64,000 nt of DNA from Escherichia phage CMS-2020a. A model generated the notes under the pieces. It ran no database searches. It was not told the origin of the DNA and was given only the letters and a program-made list of their open reading frames with translations. Position numbers and translations under genes: made by a program. The DNA lies in the sequence record CP054387.1. One strand, given 5' to 3'. Of the stretch, positions 35,751-39,428 are shown piece after piece. The stretch's first letter is position 1; each line of letters begins with the position of its first letter.

Positions 35751-36605
35751 TCATAACACTTCCCATTTATCACCATATTTCTCCATAGCTCTTAGCCAAT
35801 AAACATGGCCACTAGGCATAGTGATGTGAGGCTCGCCAAACTCTTCTCCATGTACATCAAAGATGTCCCCAACAGAAAATTGGGGGATTTCTGTTCCGTT
35901 TTCACCTATATGTGTAATTCGTATACGTTTCGGTTGGGATTGTCCACCTTTGAGCGAGTTGTTCACTGCTCTGGCAATTTTCTCCCGCAATTGCTGCGTT
36001 CCGTGATACGTAACCGCAATATCCCGCAACTCATTCACTAGTTCTCGAATTTGGTGATCTTTAAGCTCATTATTTGGGTGATTGGTAACAACTCTGGTTA
36101 ATTCCCCATTGTCTTTTGCTCTTACGTATGCAGCTCTTGTGCATTCGCCCCATGTATTACCGCCTACATTAACTTCGTAGATTAGGCTGGACTTATCTGT
36201 CAATTCGGAACAAATACGGGCCGTGGTCTGGCAACTAGAGCATTCGCAGTTATCGCGGAAACCGTGGTCTACTGGCTTCGGTTTAACATCATCAACTTTT
36301 TCTACCCTATTGGAATTTAAATACTTCGAAGCCTTGCTATGCCAATCGCTGGTTTTAGGATCTTGTCCATCCATCAAACGCCAGGCTTCAGCTATTAACT
36401 CATAACTAGTGACTGTAGCTTCCTGCGCATCACCAATAAGTCGTGTAATCTCTCTTTCAAGCCGACCGCCTAACTCCGTTTTAGTGCAATGTTCTGACCA
36501 ATCGCCAGTCTCAAGAAGCGCGAGAATGCTTAAAATATCGTCCAATAGAACGGTAGTATTATCGACTTCCTTCTGAAACTCACCGGCTACTGATTTATGC
36601 ATCAT
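35751..36605 (-). CDS. hypothetical protein
   Basis: 284-aa ORF with several Cys pairs. Confidence 0.4.
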   Translation of the reverse strand: MMHKSVAGEFQKEVDNTTVLLDDILSILALLETGDWSEHCTKTELGGRLEREITRLIGDAQEATVTSYELIAEAWRLMDGQDPKTSDWHSKASKYLNSNRVEKVDDVKPKPVDHGFRDNCECSSCQTTARICSELTDKSSLIYEVNVGGNTWGECTRAAYVRAKDNGELTRVVTNHPNNELKDHQIRELVNELRDIAVTYHGTQQLREKIARAVNNSLKGGQSQPKRIRITHIGENGTEIPQFSVGDIFDVHGEEFGEPHITMPSGHVYWLRAMEKYGDKWEVL

Positions 36606-36822
36606 TCGTCATCCTCATCCGAGTCATCCTCATCACAGGATGAGAGTAGTGGGTTAGTCATTCGCCCTACTTGAGTGGCGTAGCCACGCCGACAGAGATT
36701 GCGCAGCACACTGTATATTTCGAACATCTCGGTTCGTTCATCGCCAACATCAAGCTCAGATGCTATAGCGTGGCATTCAGTCGCGAGAGCCGATATTTTC
36801 TGAAATAACTCTGCTTTATTCA
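36602..36822 (-). CDS. hypothetical small acidic protein
   Basis: Start placed at GTG 36822 (GGAG 7 nt upstream); ORF-track start 36883 overlaps the upstream gene. Confidence 0.3.
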
Positions 36823-37391
36823 CTCTTCGACTCCTGCGGAGGTTCTGGTAGCGGCATCCAGTGAGTTGCTTGCTCAATACCATTACCCGGCTTAATCGTT
36901 ACATCTCCGCGCCGAAAGGTGATTCCGGTATAGCGTGCGGAGCATATTAGCGGTTCAACCAGAGAGCTATCGAAATTCACCGAAATAAGCACGTTCTGGC
37001 CCTTTTCAGGCATTCGCTCACTACAGCTTATCCAACCATCCGGAGTTACCGGATGGGGTCCAGCGAACTCGGGAATGTCAGGACCTTTTCTGATAGCTTT
37101 AGCCAGATCCAGCGGGTCATCGTAAAGCCAGTCGCCAGTTTGTGGGTGATTTGCTTCTGCAAGCTGCGCAGCCCATTCAAGACCATCTTTTTGACCTTGG
37201 AGATAATCAAGCGGCAACTCTTCATGATTACTTGCAGGTTCTGCACTATCAGCTTCGCGCCGCTTCTGTAGCTCTGCTGCCATCGCTCTCACGACTTCAA
37301 CTGGTGCCCTTGCAGCAAACTCTATGTTGGTGATCAGCTCATTAAGATATTGCTCGCCTGGATACTGTTTCTTATCGGTTATAGTGGTCAT
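36816..37391 (-). CDS. hypothetical protein
   Basis: Starts MTTITDKK after the repeated GGAGAGTGAT-ATG junction. Confidence 0.4.
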   Translation of the reverse strand: MTTITDKKQYPGEQYLNELITNIEFAARAPVEVVRAMAAELQKRREADSAEPASNHEELPLDYLQGQKDGLEWAAQLAEANHPQTGDWLYDDPLDLAKAIRKGPDIPEFAGPHPVTPDGWISCSERMPEKGQNVLISVNFDSSLVEPLICSARYTGITFRRGDVTIKPGNGIEQATHWMPLPEPPQESKSE

Positions 37392-37392
37392 A

Positions 37393-37779
37393 TCACTCTC
37401 CTTTTCCCTGAAGCATAGCAGCGCGGCAGGCATTCCAGCCTCTCACCTCTGCAATAGCGGCAACAGCATCAACCGCGTACATGCTAAGAGGATTAGGCAT
37501 TGGTTTTTCTTCCGGTACTACTGGAACGGGTGGAGCGGCGTAGACCTCAATAATTCCATTATCAATAGGCCATTCTCCATCCTTGAGGTAGTCACTTGTG
37601 CCGTCAACTTGCTGTTCTGCAATGTGGAATGCACCTATTGGTTTTGCTTCCAGCGATGCCAGAGCAATTCGTGCCAGTTCTTCCGCTTCTTCTGCTGGCA
37701 GTACAACGTTGCTACCAGGTCCGTATGTTTCGCGCCACTGTTTGATTGTCAGTAGTCGCTCTTTGGTAATAGTGGTCAT
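37393..37779 (-). CDS. hypothetical protein
   Basis: Starts MTTITKER; ends KGE-stop, whose codons form the RBS of the next gene. Confidence 0.4.
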   Translation of the reverse strand: MTTITKERLLTIKQWRETYGPGSNVVLPAEEAEELARIALASLEAKPIGAFHIAEQQVDGTSDYLKDGEWPIDNGIIEVYAAPPVPVVPEEKPMPNPLSMYAVDAVAAIAEVRGWNACRAAMLQGKGE

Positions 37780-37789
37780 GTGTTACTCC

Positions 37790-38053
37790 TTAACCCGCAG
37801 TGCTTTCAACTGATGAGGGGAACAAAATCCTTTCATCAAATCCGGCATTCATATCATGGACAGCAACACACCAATCCATCGACGAACGATTATCAAGAGC
37901 CTCCATGATTTCATCCATGCGGCGCAGGTCATACAGGTAAATGCTTTTATCGCCAATGGTGTAAAAACCAATTTTTTTCGGTGATGGGCAGCGATCAAGA
38001 ACGTCCTGTAATTCGTTCAACCATGCCCGTTCTTTTTTTGTTAAAGTTGCCAT
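37790..38053 (-). CDS. hypothetical small protein
   Basis: Start at ATG 38053 immediately after the upstream IKGE-stop junction. Confidence 0.35.
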   Translation of the reverse strand: MATLTKKERAWLNELQDVLDRCPSPKKIGFYTIGDKSIYLYDLRRMDEIMEALDNRSSMDWCVAVHDMNAGFDERILFPSSVESTAG

Positions 38054-38054
38054 A

Positions 38055-38576
38055 TCACTCTCCTTTGATGCGAATGCCTGCTGCAATGCTGTTTATGATG
38101 CTGTCAGTGCATGGAGTAGAAAGCTGGGCATCTCCAGCAATTTTCATGACCTCAACATCCGCATATCGAATACCGAGGTGTATCAGACCGGCTATACCTG
38201 ACTTAAGTCGAACATTTTCCATAAACAGATCTTTTTCCCGCTGTTTAGCGGCTTCCAACTCCATCGACAATTTTTCCAACTGCTCTTTATGCTTCTTGTA
38301 TTCCTGATACGCGTGCCAAGACTGACCTTTGCGCACACTATCAGTGATATCAGCAACCTGCTCCGGTGTTAGCGTGGTCAGTGGCTGTGCTGGAAAAATC
38401 ATCACTTTCCCGGCATCCCAATCAAAACCCGCCTGAATTGACTGAACCTCAACTGATGGTGTTGAACCGATGCGACCAGGCGAATGAACAACGATCGTTA
38501 CATCCATATCGCGACGATGGCTGTGGTTGTTGGACAAAATACGATTCACCAACTCAGAAAATTTGGAAAATTTCAT
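38055..38576 (-). CDS. hypothetical protein
   Basis: Start at ATG 38576 (ATGA overlap with upstream stop); C-terminus AGIRIKGE shared with gene 38898-39428. Confidence 0.4.
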
Positions 38577-38896
38577 GCTGATCCCTCTTTCTCTCCCCGG
38601 ATAATTCTGTTGCACACATCCACACACTCGTCGCAGATGAAAACGGCGTCCCCAGCAATTAACTTTTTGACGGCGTACTGGGATTTGTTGCAGAAGCTGC
38701 AACAAAGTGTTCGCCTGACTGATAAGGATGGAGCGCCAGATGTCAGCCGCTCCATATCGTTCTTGCGACGCAATATCACACGGCTGAACTCAACCAGTTT
38801 CTCCGGGGATATCTCCTCCTCCGTAGCAAGCGCCTCTAATCGTTCGAGTATGTGGAAGGCTTTTTTCTGGGTAATTGCAGAATGCGATGTGGTCAT
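38573..38896 (-). CDS. ClpX N-terminal zinc-ribbon-like protein
   Basis: [33 protein letters not shown] resembles the C4 zinc-binding domain of ClpX; no ATPase domain. Confidence 0.55.
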
Positions 38897-38897
38897 C

Positions 38898-39428
38898 TCA
38901 CTCTCCTTTGATGCGAATGCCAGCGGCGCGGGAATCATTCCATCGCTTTACTTCTTCACGAATTACGTCAATGCATTCTTTCGAATCCATTAGGTAATCT
39001 TCATCAAAAAGACGTTCCTGTTCGTTTTCTATCGCAACAATGATTGCTTCAACTAACTTTTGTGCCTGAGAATCACTTTCTAACTCTGCTATGCGCTTAC
39101 TTCCATCCGAGATAACGCCCTCGTAATACTCACGCTGCTCGTTGAGTTTTGATTTTGCCAACTCCAGTTGTTTTGTTAGTTCCGCAATACGGCAAACATC
39201 GTTGATACGCGTTTCCTCTAATGCGTTGATCTCATCCAGTAGTGCCAGCACGGTTTCTGGTCCGGCCAGAAATTTGAAGGCGTTGAGGGCATCAATATCA
39301 ACACCGCTATCTTTAAGTTCCTGTTCACTTAACAAGTCATCATCAGCTGGCAACATTAACAGGCGTTCCATTGCTGGAATTGCACGTTCCGCCACCTCAC
39401 GCAGTGCCTGGTAATTAATTTCGCTCAC
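38898..39428 (-). CDS. hypothetical coiled-coil protein
   Basis: GTG start with AGGAGG RBS; C-terminus AAGIRIKGE. Confidence 0.4.

What the first reader, a model, noticed from the sequence alone, without database searches (positions are those of the whole stretch)
36602..39428. Tandem small paralogous genes whose C-terminal KGE codons double as the next gene's ribosome-binding site
Several consecutive genes end with ...(I)KGE-stop encoded by AAAGGAGAGTGA, and the next gene starts 1 nt later with ATGACCAC (MTT...). The 25-30-bp junction (GCATTCGCATCAAAGGAGAGTGAT-ATG) recurs at 37391, 38053 and 38896, and a shorter GGAGAGTGAT-ATG version at 27819. Two genes share the C-terminus AGIRIKGE. This looks like a linker sequence used for modular duplication and shuffling of small early genes, with translational coupling built in.
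Basis: seen in the sequence. Interest (0 to 1): 0.45.

Follow-up and report, generated by a model that had tools for sequence, protein, structure and literature searches.

The report
Conserved gene-junction linker for phage cassette shuffling
A 28-base sequence that ends one small phage gene, carries the ribosome-binding site and starts the next gene recurs unchanged between unrelated genes in thousands of E. coli prophages, marking where accessory genes are swapped; this is a clear example of a long-proposed kind of phage "linker", not a new kind of element.

Summary
All genes are on the minus strand. AAAGGAGAGTGAnATG (codons K-G-E, stop, one base, ATG) occurs three times (ATGs at 37391, 38053, 38896; none expected by chance). 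The long version, GGCATTCGCATCAAAGGAGAGTGAnATG (…GIRIKGE*), occurs only twice (38053, 38896). The 37391 junction belongs to a second family (…WNACRAAMLQGKGE*). The site at 27819 is an ordinary ribosome-binding site behind a terminator. The genes are not paralogues; only their last 12-18 residues match.

The window is an SSU5-like ~108 kb phage-plasmid carrying a lambdoid "ea/exo-xis" accessory-gene array. The linker is the 3' end of phage lambda ea22. It occurs in 324 of 50,697 phage records and 2,925 of 5,426 complete E. coli genomes, and in P1-like phages. Across IMG/VR copies, identity is about 97% in the linker and random (0.27) beside it. I found 18 upstream and 24 downstream DNA families in 57 combinations. 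Relatives gain, lose or replace cassettes at the linker.

Best reading: a conserved boundary sequence (Susskind-Botstein; Clark 2001) combining a coding tail, a Shine-Dalgarno site, stop and start, and acting as a patch for homologous exchange. It also explains the "+GE" Ea22 tail, published as unexplained. Exchange at the linker is shown; the recombination mechanism and translational coupling are inferred.

The parts
38894..38921 (-). Type-1 linker, copy A: GGCATTCGCATCAAAGGAGAGTGAgATG. It encodes the last 7 codons (GIRIKGE) of Ea22, then TGA, one base, and the ATG of the ClpX-zinc-finger gene.
   Evidence: Exact matches. Same sequence in lambda ea22, in at least 120 IMG/VR contigs and in 324 phage records. 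Homology to CMS-2020a stops at 38896.
38051..38078 (-). Type-1 linker, copy B: GGCATTCGCATCAAAGGAGAGTGAtATG. It ends the 173-aa gene and starts the 87-aa gene. It is a direct repeat of copy A, 843 bp away.
   Evidence: D7: 87% identity over 39 nt with copy A. Homology breakpoints to relatives fall at 38063-38073. L107 lacks exactly the 843 bp between the two copies.
37389..37436 (-). Type-2 linker: TGGAATGCCTGCCGCGCTGCTATGCTTCAGGGAAAAGGAGAGTGATATG. It encodes WNACRAAMLQGKGE, then the stop, one base, and the ATG of the DUF551 gene.
   Evidence: core 16-mer. 65 IMG/VR contigs carry it, with combinatorial flanks. Homology to CMS-2020a and Cyrano ends at 37391.
38898..39428 (-). Ead/Ea22-family gene, 176 aa, GTG start, ending AAGIRIKGE.
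   Evidence: Pfam PF13935, E = 7.6e-24; ORF.
38573..38896 (-). Cassette gene of 107 aa with a ClpX-type C4 zinc finger.
   Evidence: Pfam PF06689, E = 1.3e-15. In CMS-2020a the same gene follows a different, linker-less junction.
38055..38576 (-). Cassette gene of 173 aa with no Pfam family, ending AAGIRIKGE. Homologues in the relatives end AAGIFTKEGAAR instead.
37790..38053 (-). Cassette gene of 87 aa (MATLTKKE…). Elsewhere it is found behind both linker types.
   Evidence: (family D2).
37393..37779 (-). Cassette gene of 128 aa ending WNACRAAMLQGKGE.
36816..37391 (-). DUF551 gene, 191 aa (MTTITDKK…).
   Evidence: Pfam PF04448, E = 6.8e-22.
36602..36823 (-). Gene of 73 aa with a GTG start that overlaps the end of the DUF551 gene. 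In CMS-2020a and Cyrano it is fused to DUF551.
35751..36605 (-). EaA-like gene of 284 aa, near the distal end of the array (a further 187-aa minus-strand ORF, 35213-35776, overlaps its end).
   Evidence: annotated 'EaA protein' in PhiR41_1.
39415..39669 (-). DUF7446 gene of 84 aa, upstream of Ea22. Its Shine-Dalgarno site (AAAGGAGG) lies in the KGG codons of the preceding gene.
39666..40208 (-). Eae-like gene of 180 aa, the first gene of the array.
27816..27829 (-). GGAGAGTGATATGA: an ordinary ribosome-binding site and start of a first-in-operon gene. It is not a linker.
   Evidence: (D10).

Best explanation
The region is a lambdoid-type 'ea / exo-xis' accessory-gene array, one minus-strand gene chain from about 40208 to 35751. 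It sits inside an SSU5-like ~108 kb phage-plasmid.

Three of its gene junctions are conserved boundary (linker) sequences. Each linker does several jobs with the same bases:
1. It encodes the last residues of the upstream protein (GIRIKGE, or AMLQGKGE).
2. Its K-G-E codons, AAA GGA GAG, form a strong Shine-Dalgarno site (AAGGAG) 6 nt before the next ATG.
3. It places the TGA stop 1 nt before that ATG, so ribosomes that terminate can re-initiate.
4. Because the same 28 nt (type 1) or ~45 nt (type 2) are kept identical in many phages between otherwise unrelated genes, it offers a patch of perfect homology. Host RecA or phage annealing recombinases can cross over there. Such a crossover swaps, inserts or deletes whole genes and leaves both reading frames and the translation signals intact.

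Shown here: the identity island, the combinatorial flanks, the cassette differences located at the linker, and the Shine-Dalgarno complementarity.

Inferred: that the exchanges are homologous crossovers within the linker, and that downstream translation is coupled to upstream translation.
For: Recurrence in the window:
- The core motif occurs three times with 0 expected by chance.
- The 23-mer occurs twice with 0 expected.

The identity island:
- Among 100 unique 328-nt junction contexts from IMG/VR, 4087 of 4950 pairs share only the linker. Linker identity is 0.974; flank identity is 0.27, which is random.
- 428 pairs share only the upstream flank, 360 only the downstream flank, and 75 both.
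- Conservation drops to background within about 12 nt upstream and immediately after the ATG.

Combinatorial flanks:
- 18 upstream and 24 downstream DNA families occur in 57 combinations.
- At protein level there are 7 upstream and 15 downstream families.
- The type-2 linker behaves the same way and draws on the same pool of downstream cassettes.

Conservation at the DNA level:
- A codon-degenerate scan for GIRIKGE* returned 120 contigs. 105 were already found with the exact sequence and 15 carried single synonymous changes.
- The three codons just upstream change amino acid between families (RAA, IAT, WLA, RVA, STT…).

Cassette gain, loss and replacement at the linker:
- L107 equals the window minus the 843 bp between the two type-1 copies.
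- PhiR41_1, CMS-2020a and Cyrano replace the 87-aa gene (CMS-2020a and Cyrano also the 128-aa gene) with a 61-aa gene. Breakpoints lie at 38063-38073, and for CMS-2020a and Cyrano also at 37391.
- All four SSU5-like relatives carry different arrays.

Spread across lineages:
- The array matches 471 phage records, mostly lambdoid or Stx phages. The adjacent backbone matches only 11 SSU5-like records.
- The linker is also in lambda ea22, in P1-like JL22 and 813R1, in 324 phage records, and in 2,925 of 5,426 E. coli genomes, up to 10 copies per genome.

Ribosome-binding function: pairing with the anti-Shine-Dalgarno sequence is -9.1 kcal/mol, among the strongest in the array.

Against: - Not all exchange happens at linkers. 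Many homology breakpoints in the same array lie inside genes (around 37050, 37640, 38240-38260, 39070-39230) or at junctions without this linker.
- CMS-2020a joins Ea22 to the ClpX-zinc-finger gene with no linker.
- The contigs used for the flank statistics were selected because they contain the linker. They show what the linker joins, not how often exchange uses it compared with other sites.
- A 28-nt homology is close to the lower limit for efficient RecA-dependent recombination (my own knowledge, not tested here).
- Near-invariant synonymous sites could reflect recent spread rather than selection.
- No experiment here shows crossover or translational coupling.
Confidence: 0.7

Rival explanations
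1. Passive by-product. The linker is only the conserved 3' end of an ancestral ea22-type gene together with a good ribosome-binding site. New gene combinations arise by illegitimate recombination anywhere, and selection keeps those joints that fall at gene boundaries (the Hendrix/Juhala view). In this view the linker hitch-hikes and has no role in recombination.
For: - 98 of 115 complete upstream proteins fall into one Ea22-linked cluster.
- Many breakpoints are intragenic or at junctions without the linker.
- In lambda the linker persists although no gene start follows it: ATC replaces ATG, with 190 nt of non-coding DNA after it.
- The published view is that most mosaic joints lack conserved sequences (PMC3029335; PMC2327257).
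Against: - The upstream side also changes family directly at the linker edge. Non-Ea22 proteins of 163, 78, 53 and 75 aa carry the same tail.
- The 843-bp presence/absence polymorphism is bounded exactly by two direct linker copies.
- Synonymous sites outside the Shine-Dalgarno sequence (GGC ATT CGC ATC) are near-invariant across unrelated contexts.
Confidence: 0.2
2. The conserved tail is a functional peptide (…GIRIKGE) selected at the protein level, for example a binding or degradation tag shared by many accessory proteins. One speculative version is that it mimics a ClpX N-domain-binding tail; a ClpX-type zinc-finger gene lies immediately downstream. The DNA identity would then be secondary.
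For: - Every Ea22 variant ends in a basic residue followed by G-E, and the significance of this is unknown (PMC7093339).
- The residues before the linker (RAA) vary at synonymous sites while keeping the amino acids, which suggests some constraint at the protein level.
- The resemblance of IRIK to the SspB tail LRVVK is from my memory only and was not tested.
Against: - There is almost no synonymous variation in the seven tail codons, which is not what protein-level selection alone would give.
- K-G-E is encoded by exactly the Shine-Dalgarno bases.
- Relatives replace the tail with AAGIFTKEGAAR in an otherwise ~98% identical protein, so the tail is dispensable.
- The tail is attached to proteins of unrelated sequence families.
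Confidence: 0.07
3. The linker is a target for a dedicated enzyme: a site-specific recombinase acting on integron-like cassettes, or a homing endonuclease.
For: The layout resembles cassettes with a repeated junction. An HNH endonuclease is annotated near an ea array in one Salmonella phage (H5).
Against: - The linkers contain no inverted repeat or palindrome.
- RNA folding around them is not significant: z = -1.56, +0.53 and +1.12.
- Rfam finds no family.
- No integrase or endonuclease gene is present in the array.
- The linker occurs in three unrelated phage lineages that share no dedicated enzyme.
Confidence: 0.03

Closest known systems
Conserved boundary ('linker') sequences of lambdoid phages, from the modular evolution theory (Susskind & Botstein 1978; Clark, Inwood, Cloutier & Dhillon 2001, HK620)
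   Same: A short sequence is conserved at gene or module boundaries among phages whose flanking DNA is unrelated. It is proposed as the site of homologous exchange. The same phage group and the same early-left accessory region are involved.
   Different: - I could not read Clark 2001, so I do not know whether this exact 28-mer was listed there.
- Here the linker is documented quantitatively: hundreds of contexts and two linker families that share one pool of downstream cassettes.
- It is also shown outside lambdoid phages, in SSU5-like and P1-like phage-plasmids.
3' end of phage lambda ea22, and the '+GE' C-terminal tripeptide of Ea22 proteins (Dydecka et al. 2020, PMC7093339; Ea22 CTD NMR structure, PMC10834534)
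   Same: Lambda ea22 ends with the identical GGCATTCGCATCAAAGGAGAGTGA. The window's 176-aa protein is an Ead/Ea22 family member with the same tail.
   Different: - The published work treats +GE as a protein motif of unknown significance.
- Here it is explained at the DNA level as Shine-Dalgarno site plus linker.
- It is also found on non-Ea22 proteins.
- The window's Ea22 C-terminal part differs from that of lambda.
PeSL promoter/stem-loop cassettes of T4-type phages (Arbiol et al. 2010, PMC2839356; Comeau et al. 2014, PMC4122927)
   Same: A repeated regulatory sequence flanks small early genes in hyperplastic regions and doubles as homology for modular shuffling.
   Different: PeSLs are intergenic transcription signals (promoter plus terminator-like hairpin). 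This linker is a translation signal embedded in coding sequence, with no hairpin. It occurs in temperate phages rather than T4-like lytic phages.
Integron gene cassettes (attC sites)
   Same: Arrays of small, promoter-less genes in one orientation are separated by a recurring junction element, and gene content is combinatorial.
   Different: There is no imperfect inverted repeat, no integrase, and no circular cassette intermediate is implied. Exchange is presumably by general homologous recombination.

Membership tests
Lambdoid conserved boundary/linker sequence | A short sequence conserved between genomes whose DNA on both sides is non-homologous | tested here: met
   4087 of 4950 unique pairs share only the linker (identity 0.974 against 0.27 in the flanks). 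The type-2 linker gives the same result.
Lambdoid conserved boundary/linker sequence | Located at a gene or module boundary | tested here: met
   It spans the last 7 codons, the stop and the start codon.
Lambdoid conserved boundary/linker sequence | The same flanking modules occur in different combinations across genomes, and relatives differ by modules bounded by the sequence | tested here: met
   57 combinations of 18 upstream and 24 downstream families. An 843-bp presence/absence difference lies exactly between two copies. Replacement breakpoints fall at 37391 and 38063-38073.
Lambdoid conserved boundary/linker sequence | Exchange actually occurs by homologous recombination within the sequence | not testable with these tools
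   This needs phage crosses or recombination assays.
Ead/Ea22 protein family (Pfam PF13935) with the '+GE' tail | Match to the Ead_Ea22 profile above the gathering score | tested here: met
   The 176-aa protein scores 85.3 bits against a cutoff of 27. The 173-aa and 128-aa KGE-ending proteins do not match.
Ead/Ea22 protein family (Pfam PF13935) with the '+GE' tail | C-terminus of a basic residue followed by Gly-Glu | tested here: met
   It ends in …IRIKGE. The motif is described in PMC7093339.
Translationally coupled gene pair (termination-reinitiation) | The stop of the upstream gene overlaps or lies within a few nt of the downstream start, with the Shine-Dalgarno site inside the upstream ORF | tested here: met
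   The arrangement is TGA-n-ATG, with AAGGAG 6 nt upstream of the ATG and pairing of -9.1 kcal/mol.
Translationally coupled gene pair (termination-reinitiation) | Downstream translation depends on translation of the upstream gene | not testable with these tools
   This needs reporter fusions with premature stops in the upstream gene.
Integron cassette / attC | Imperfect inverted repeats that form a folded recombination site | tested here: not met
   No inverted repeat lies at any linker. Folding is not significant.
Integron cassette / attC | An adjacent tyrosine-recombinase integrase | tested here: not met
   None of the ten genes scanned against Pfam, nor any gene annotated at this locus in the relatives, is an integrase.
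   Only terminal matches of 12-18 aa are found. No other pair scores below E = 0.002, and no matches cover more than a segment.

The most novel reading that the evidence does not exclude
The 28-nt linker, with its ~45-nt sibling, is not a leftover but a selected universal adaptor. In this reading it is a recombinase-independent cassette system shared by at least three unrelated temperate-phage lineages of Enterobacteria: lambdoid, P1-like and SSU5-like phage-plasmids. Any small accessory gene could then be plugged into any array with its translation signals supplied ready-made. The tail imposed on the upstream protein (GIRIKGE) would be the tolerated price. This would make the ea/exo-xis arrays a common, rapidly exchanging accessory-gene pool, and the linker a tractable test of the homologous-linker versus illegitimate-recombination debate.
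Probability: 0.3. Interest if true: 0.6.

Novelty: new member of a known kind. Interest (0 to 1): 0.42.

Why it matters
How phage genomes become mosaic has been argued for more than forty years: by homologous exchange at conserved linkers, or by random illegitimate joining followed by selection. Clear, quantifiable linkers are rare.

This linker has several useful properties:
- It is short and sharply bounded.
- It is present in about half of all complete E. coli genomes, often in several copies.
- It joins dozens of unrelated genes in many combinations.
- It crosses between lambdoid, P1-like and SSU5-like phages.

That makes it a practical handle for testing the linker model by experiment. 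It could also help map accessory-gene flow among prophages, including Stx phages.

It gives a simple DNA-level explanation for the conserved '+GE' C-terminus of Ea22 proteins, which the literature lists as unexplained. It also warns annotators that a shared C-terminal peptide does not imply homology between these proteins.

Tried and rejected
- Paralogy of the tandem genes: all-against-all BLASTP found only terminal matches. Rejected.
- The 27819 'short version': it is an ordinary ribosome-binding site after a terminator, with no upstream ORF. Rejected as a linker.
- RNA element: Rfam finds nothing at gathering thresholds across 34500-41000. Folding 80 nt around each junction is not better than shuffles.
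- attC-like or palindromic site: no inverted repeat at the linkers.
- Internal promoters or terminators splitting the array: the consensus scan found no minus-strand promoter. The only convincing minus-strand terminator is at the array's end, 35198-35174.
- Programmed frameshift fusing neighbouring genes: the linker is open in the downstream frame (AFASKESE-M). However, the P-site codon GAG cannot re-pair in the +1 frame, and the Shine-Dalgarno site abuts the stop. I considered this from the sequence only and did not pursue it.
- Clark et al. 2001 (PubMed id 11518522) is not held in the library. I could not check whether this exact sequence was listed there.
- A full-text search for IRIKGE, GIRIKGE or AAAGGAGAGTGA found no relevant phage paper.
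- The ClpX-tail-mimic idea could not be tested.

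
Full report
**What is in the window.** All genes in 35751-40208 lie on the minus strand and form one tight chain:
- eae-like, 180 aa, 39666-40208
- DUF7446, 84 aa, 39415-39669
- Ead/Ea22, 176 aa, 38898-39428
- ClpX-type zinc-finger protein, 107 aa, 38573-38896
- a 173-aa protein with no family, 38055-38576
- an 87-aa protein, 37790-38053
- a 128-aa protein, 37393-37779
- DUF551, 191 aa, 36816-37391
- a 73-aa protein with a GTG start, 36602-36823
- EaA-like, 284 aa, 35751-36605

The gene starts agree with the annotation of the nearest relative, PhiR41_1.

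**Checking the observation.**
- AAAGGAGAGTGAnATG occurs exactly three times, at 37389-37404, 38051-38066 and 38894-38909. None is expected in shuffles. Each time it encodes …K-G-E-stop, then one base, then the next gene's ATG.
- The long junction GCATTCGCATCAAAGGAGAGTGA occurs only twice, at 38055-38077 and 38898-38920, even with three mismatches allowed.
- The 37391 junction shares only the 16-21 nt core. Upstream it reads …TGGAATGCCTGCCGCGCTGCTATGCTTCAGGGA (WNACRAAMLQG). Its similarity to the other two is 67% over 39 nt (D7).
- Two proteins end in AAGIRIKGE and a third in AAMLQGKGE.
- Only two of the three downstream genes begin with ATGACCAC.
- The genes are not paralogues. BLASTP finds only a 12-aa match (173-aa against 176-aa protein) and an 18-aa match (128-aa against 176-aa protein) at the C-termini.
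- The 'short version' at 27816-27829 follows a terminator hairpin and an AT-rich spacer, and no ORF runs into it. It is an ordinary ribosome-binding site.

**What element this is.**
- DNA next to the array (41500-47500) matches only 11 phage records, all ~84-120 kb SSU5-like phages or phage-plasmids. These include PhiR41_1 at 99%, CMS-2020a and Cyrano at 95%, SSU5 at 87%, and Klebsiella relatives.
- The array itself (36400-39700) matches 471 records in short mosaic pieces, mostly lambdoid and Stx-converting phages. No record covers 80% of it.
- The array is thus a lambdoid 'ea / exo-xis' type accessory region resident in an SSU5-like phage-plasmid.
- SSU5 itself has different genes at the equivalent place.

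- Positional conservation falls to background about 12 nt upstream and immediately after the ATG.
- Among 100 unique 328-nt contexts, 4087 of 4950 pairs share nothing but the linker (identity 0.974 against 0.27 in both flanks). 428 pairs share only the upstream flank, 360 only the downstream flank, and 75 both.
- Flank clustering gives 18 upstream and 24 downstream DNA families in 57 combinations.
- At protein level there are 7 upstream families: Ea22 variants, plus unrelated proteins of 163, 78, 53 and 75 aa. There are 15 downstream families, including DUF551 proteins, the 87-aa protein, the ClpX zinc-finger protein, and 171-aa and 251-aa proteins.
- The type-2 linker (…AMLQ/HGKGE*) occurs in 65 contigs and is conserved over about 45 nt. 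It has the same combinatorial behaviour (523 'neither', 103 'upstream only', 115 'downstream only', 79 'both'). It feeds into the same pool of downstream cassettes.

**DNA-level or protein-level conservation.**
- A scan with fully degenerate codons for G-I-R-I-K-G-E-stop returned 120 contigs. Only 15 were new, and each carried a single synonymous change. The other 105 carry the exact 24-mer.
- The three codons just upstream differ in amino acid between families: RAA, IAT, WLA, RVA, RAT, STT, IVA.
- Wobble positions of GGC ATT CGC ATC, which are not part of the Shine-Dalgarno sequence, are 0.92-1.00 identical even between contexts with random flanks.
- This argues that the DNA itself is what is kept, by selection or by rapid spread, rather than a peptide.

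**Cassette differences in relatives fall at the linker.**
- *Replacement.* Against CMS-2020a and Cyrano, homology stops at 37391 (the ATG of the DUF551 gene) and resumes at 38063, inside the linker. Against PhiR41_1, whose homologue of the 128-aa gene is retained at about 84% identity, homology is interrupted between 37679 and 38073. Against CMS-2020a it stops again at 38896. In all three relatives a 61-aa gene takes the place of the 87-aa gene, and in CMS-2020a and Cyrano also of the 128-aa gene.
- *Tail swap.* In those relatives the 173-aa homologue ends AAGIFTKEGAAR, encoded by a diverged junction: GGCATTTTCACCAAAGAGGGGGCAGCACGATG.
- *Linker-less junction.* In CMS-2020a the ClpX zinc-finger gene follows a truncated Ea22 with no linker, and the breakpoint is exactly at the ATG.
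- *Deletion or insertion.* The two type-1 copies in the window are direct repeats 843 bp apart. Contig L107 aligns continuously (90% over 742 nt) to the window with exactly those 843 bp removed. L049, L090, L183 and L193 keep both copies 843 bp apart.
- All four SSU5-like genomes compared have different arrays.

**Distribution.**
- Phage lambda's ea22 ends with the identical GGCATTCGCATCAAAGGAGAGTGAG. There it is followed by ATC rather than ATG, and by 190 nt without a gene.
- The linker is found in 324 of 50,697 phage records: Stx1/Stx2 phages, lambda, HK633, and Salmonella and Shigella phages.
- It is also in the P1-like phages JL22 and 813R1. In 813R1 the downstream cassette is decayed to 11 codons.
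- It is present in 2,925 of 5,426 complete E. coli genomes, with a median of 2 and up to 10 places per genome. 306 of the places are on plasmids.

**Translation signals.**
- The K-G-E codons AAA GGA GAG contain AAGGAG 6 nt before the ATG. Pairing with the 16S rRNA 3' end is -9.1 kcal/mol, among the strongest in the array.
- The stop is 1 nt before the start.
- Neighbouring junctions use the same principle without the linker. One example is …AAAGGAGGCAACCAGTGA with a GTG overlapping the stop at 39669.
- A Shine-Dalgarno site in the upstream gene's last codons is therefore ordinary for this operon. What is special is the invariant, portable junction.
- Coupling itself is inferred, not shown.

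**What it is not.**
- Rfam finds no family.
- RNA folding around the linkers is not significant.
- There are no inverted repeats at the linkers.
- There is no integrase or nuclease gene in the array.
- The consensus scan finds no internal promoters on the minus strand. The one convincing minus-strand terminator lies at the array's end.

**Comparison with what is known.**
[quoted passage not shown] It is attributed to Susskind & Botstein 1978 and Clark et al. 2001 in PMC3029335 and PMC2327257. It contrasts with the view that most joints lack such sequences and arise illegitimately.
- I could not read Clark 2001.
- The open-access library has no paper mentioning this sequence or the IRIKGE tail.
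- Dydecka et al. 2020 noted that all Ea22 proteins end in a basic residue followed by G-E, and stated that its significance is unknown. The Ea22 structure paper notes that ea22 genes are mosaic. The present analysis explains +GE as the coding shadow of the Shine-Dalgarno site and linker.
- A functional analogue exists in T4-type phages. There, PeSL promoter/stem-loop cassettes flank early genes and mediate shuffling (PMC2839356, PMC4122927).

**Caveats.**
- The IMG/VR contexts were selected for containing the linker.
- Breakpoints also occur inside genes and at linker-less junctions.
- The recombination mechanism and translational coupling are inferences.
- A passive hitch-hiking explanation is not excluded.

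**Verdict.** This is a real, well-delimited and extremely widespread conserved gene-junction linker. It is a member of a known kind of phage feature, with a new host lineage and a useful explanation of a published loose end. Interest is moderate.

Noticed in passing
window 27339-27402, 31198-31261, 35136-35199, 40256-40319; also 26599, 28266, 28751, 31172, 44824, 45553: A 64-nt repeat recurs between operons. It contains the hairpin AAGGCCACAAC…GTGGCCTT next to a near-palindrome, GAAAACAAnTTGTTTTC (18-nt motif). The copies at 35136 and 40256 bracket the whole ea array, 5,120 bp apart. It may be a terminator plus operator/promoter unit of the phage-plasmid backbone.
   Followed up: partly
window 34000-47500: The backbone is an SSU5-like ~108 kb phage-plasmid, closest to PhiR41_1, CMS-2020a and Cyrano. 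A lambdoid-type accessory array is embedded between a UmuD-like gene and an eae-like gene. Nucleotide identity to Stx and lambdoid phages is 94-98%, which implies recent exchange between unrelated phage lineages.
   Followed up: partly
L002 4179-4832 (CMS-2020a), L003 4203-4856 (Cyrano); IMG/VR L099: Gene fusion and fission occur around the linkers. The relatives encode a 217-aa protein that corresponds to a DUF551-type protein fused to the window's 73-aa gene product. Other phages encode a 287-aa protein that joins a 128-aa-like N-terminal part to DUF551 across the WNACRAAMLQ motif, without the GKGE-stop-ATG split.
   Followed up: no
L139 (lambda J02459 29655-29875): In phage lambda the linker at the end of ea22 is followed by ATC instead of ATG, and by about 190 nt with no annotated gene before ea8.5. 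This looks like a lost or decayed downstream cassette.
   Followed up: no
L202 about 5007 (Escherichia phage vB_EcoM-813R1, P1-like): A linker variant, GGCATTGGCATC (tail GIGIKGE), is followed by the 87-aa cassette truncated to 11 codons. This is a decaying cassette in a Punavirus.
   Followed up: no
window 38894-38938, 38051-38086, 37389-37433 (minus strand): The linker has no stop in the downstream gene's reading frame (…AFASKESE-M…). Mechanical ORF calling therefore yields N-terminally extended ORFs of 121, 98 and 205 aa that overlap the upstream gene. Homology breakpoints at the ATG and the annotation of relatives argue that the short forms are the real genes.
   Followed up: partly
window 38573-38896: A stand-alone 107-aa protein carries a ClpX-type C4 zinc finger and sits directly after an Ea22 gene. 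I did not examine whether it interferes with host ClpX adaptor or substrate recognition.
   Followed up: no
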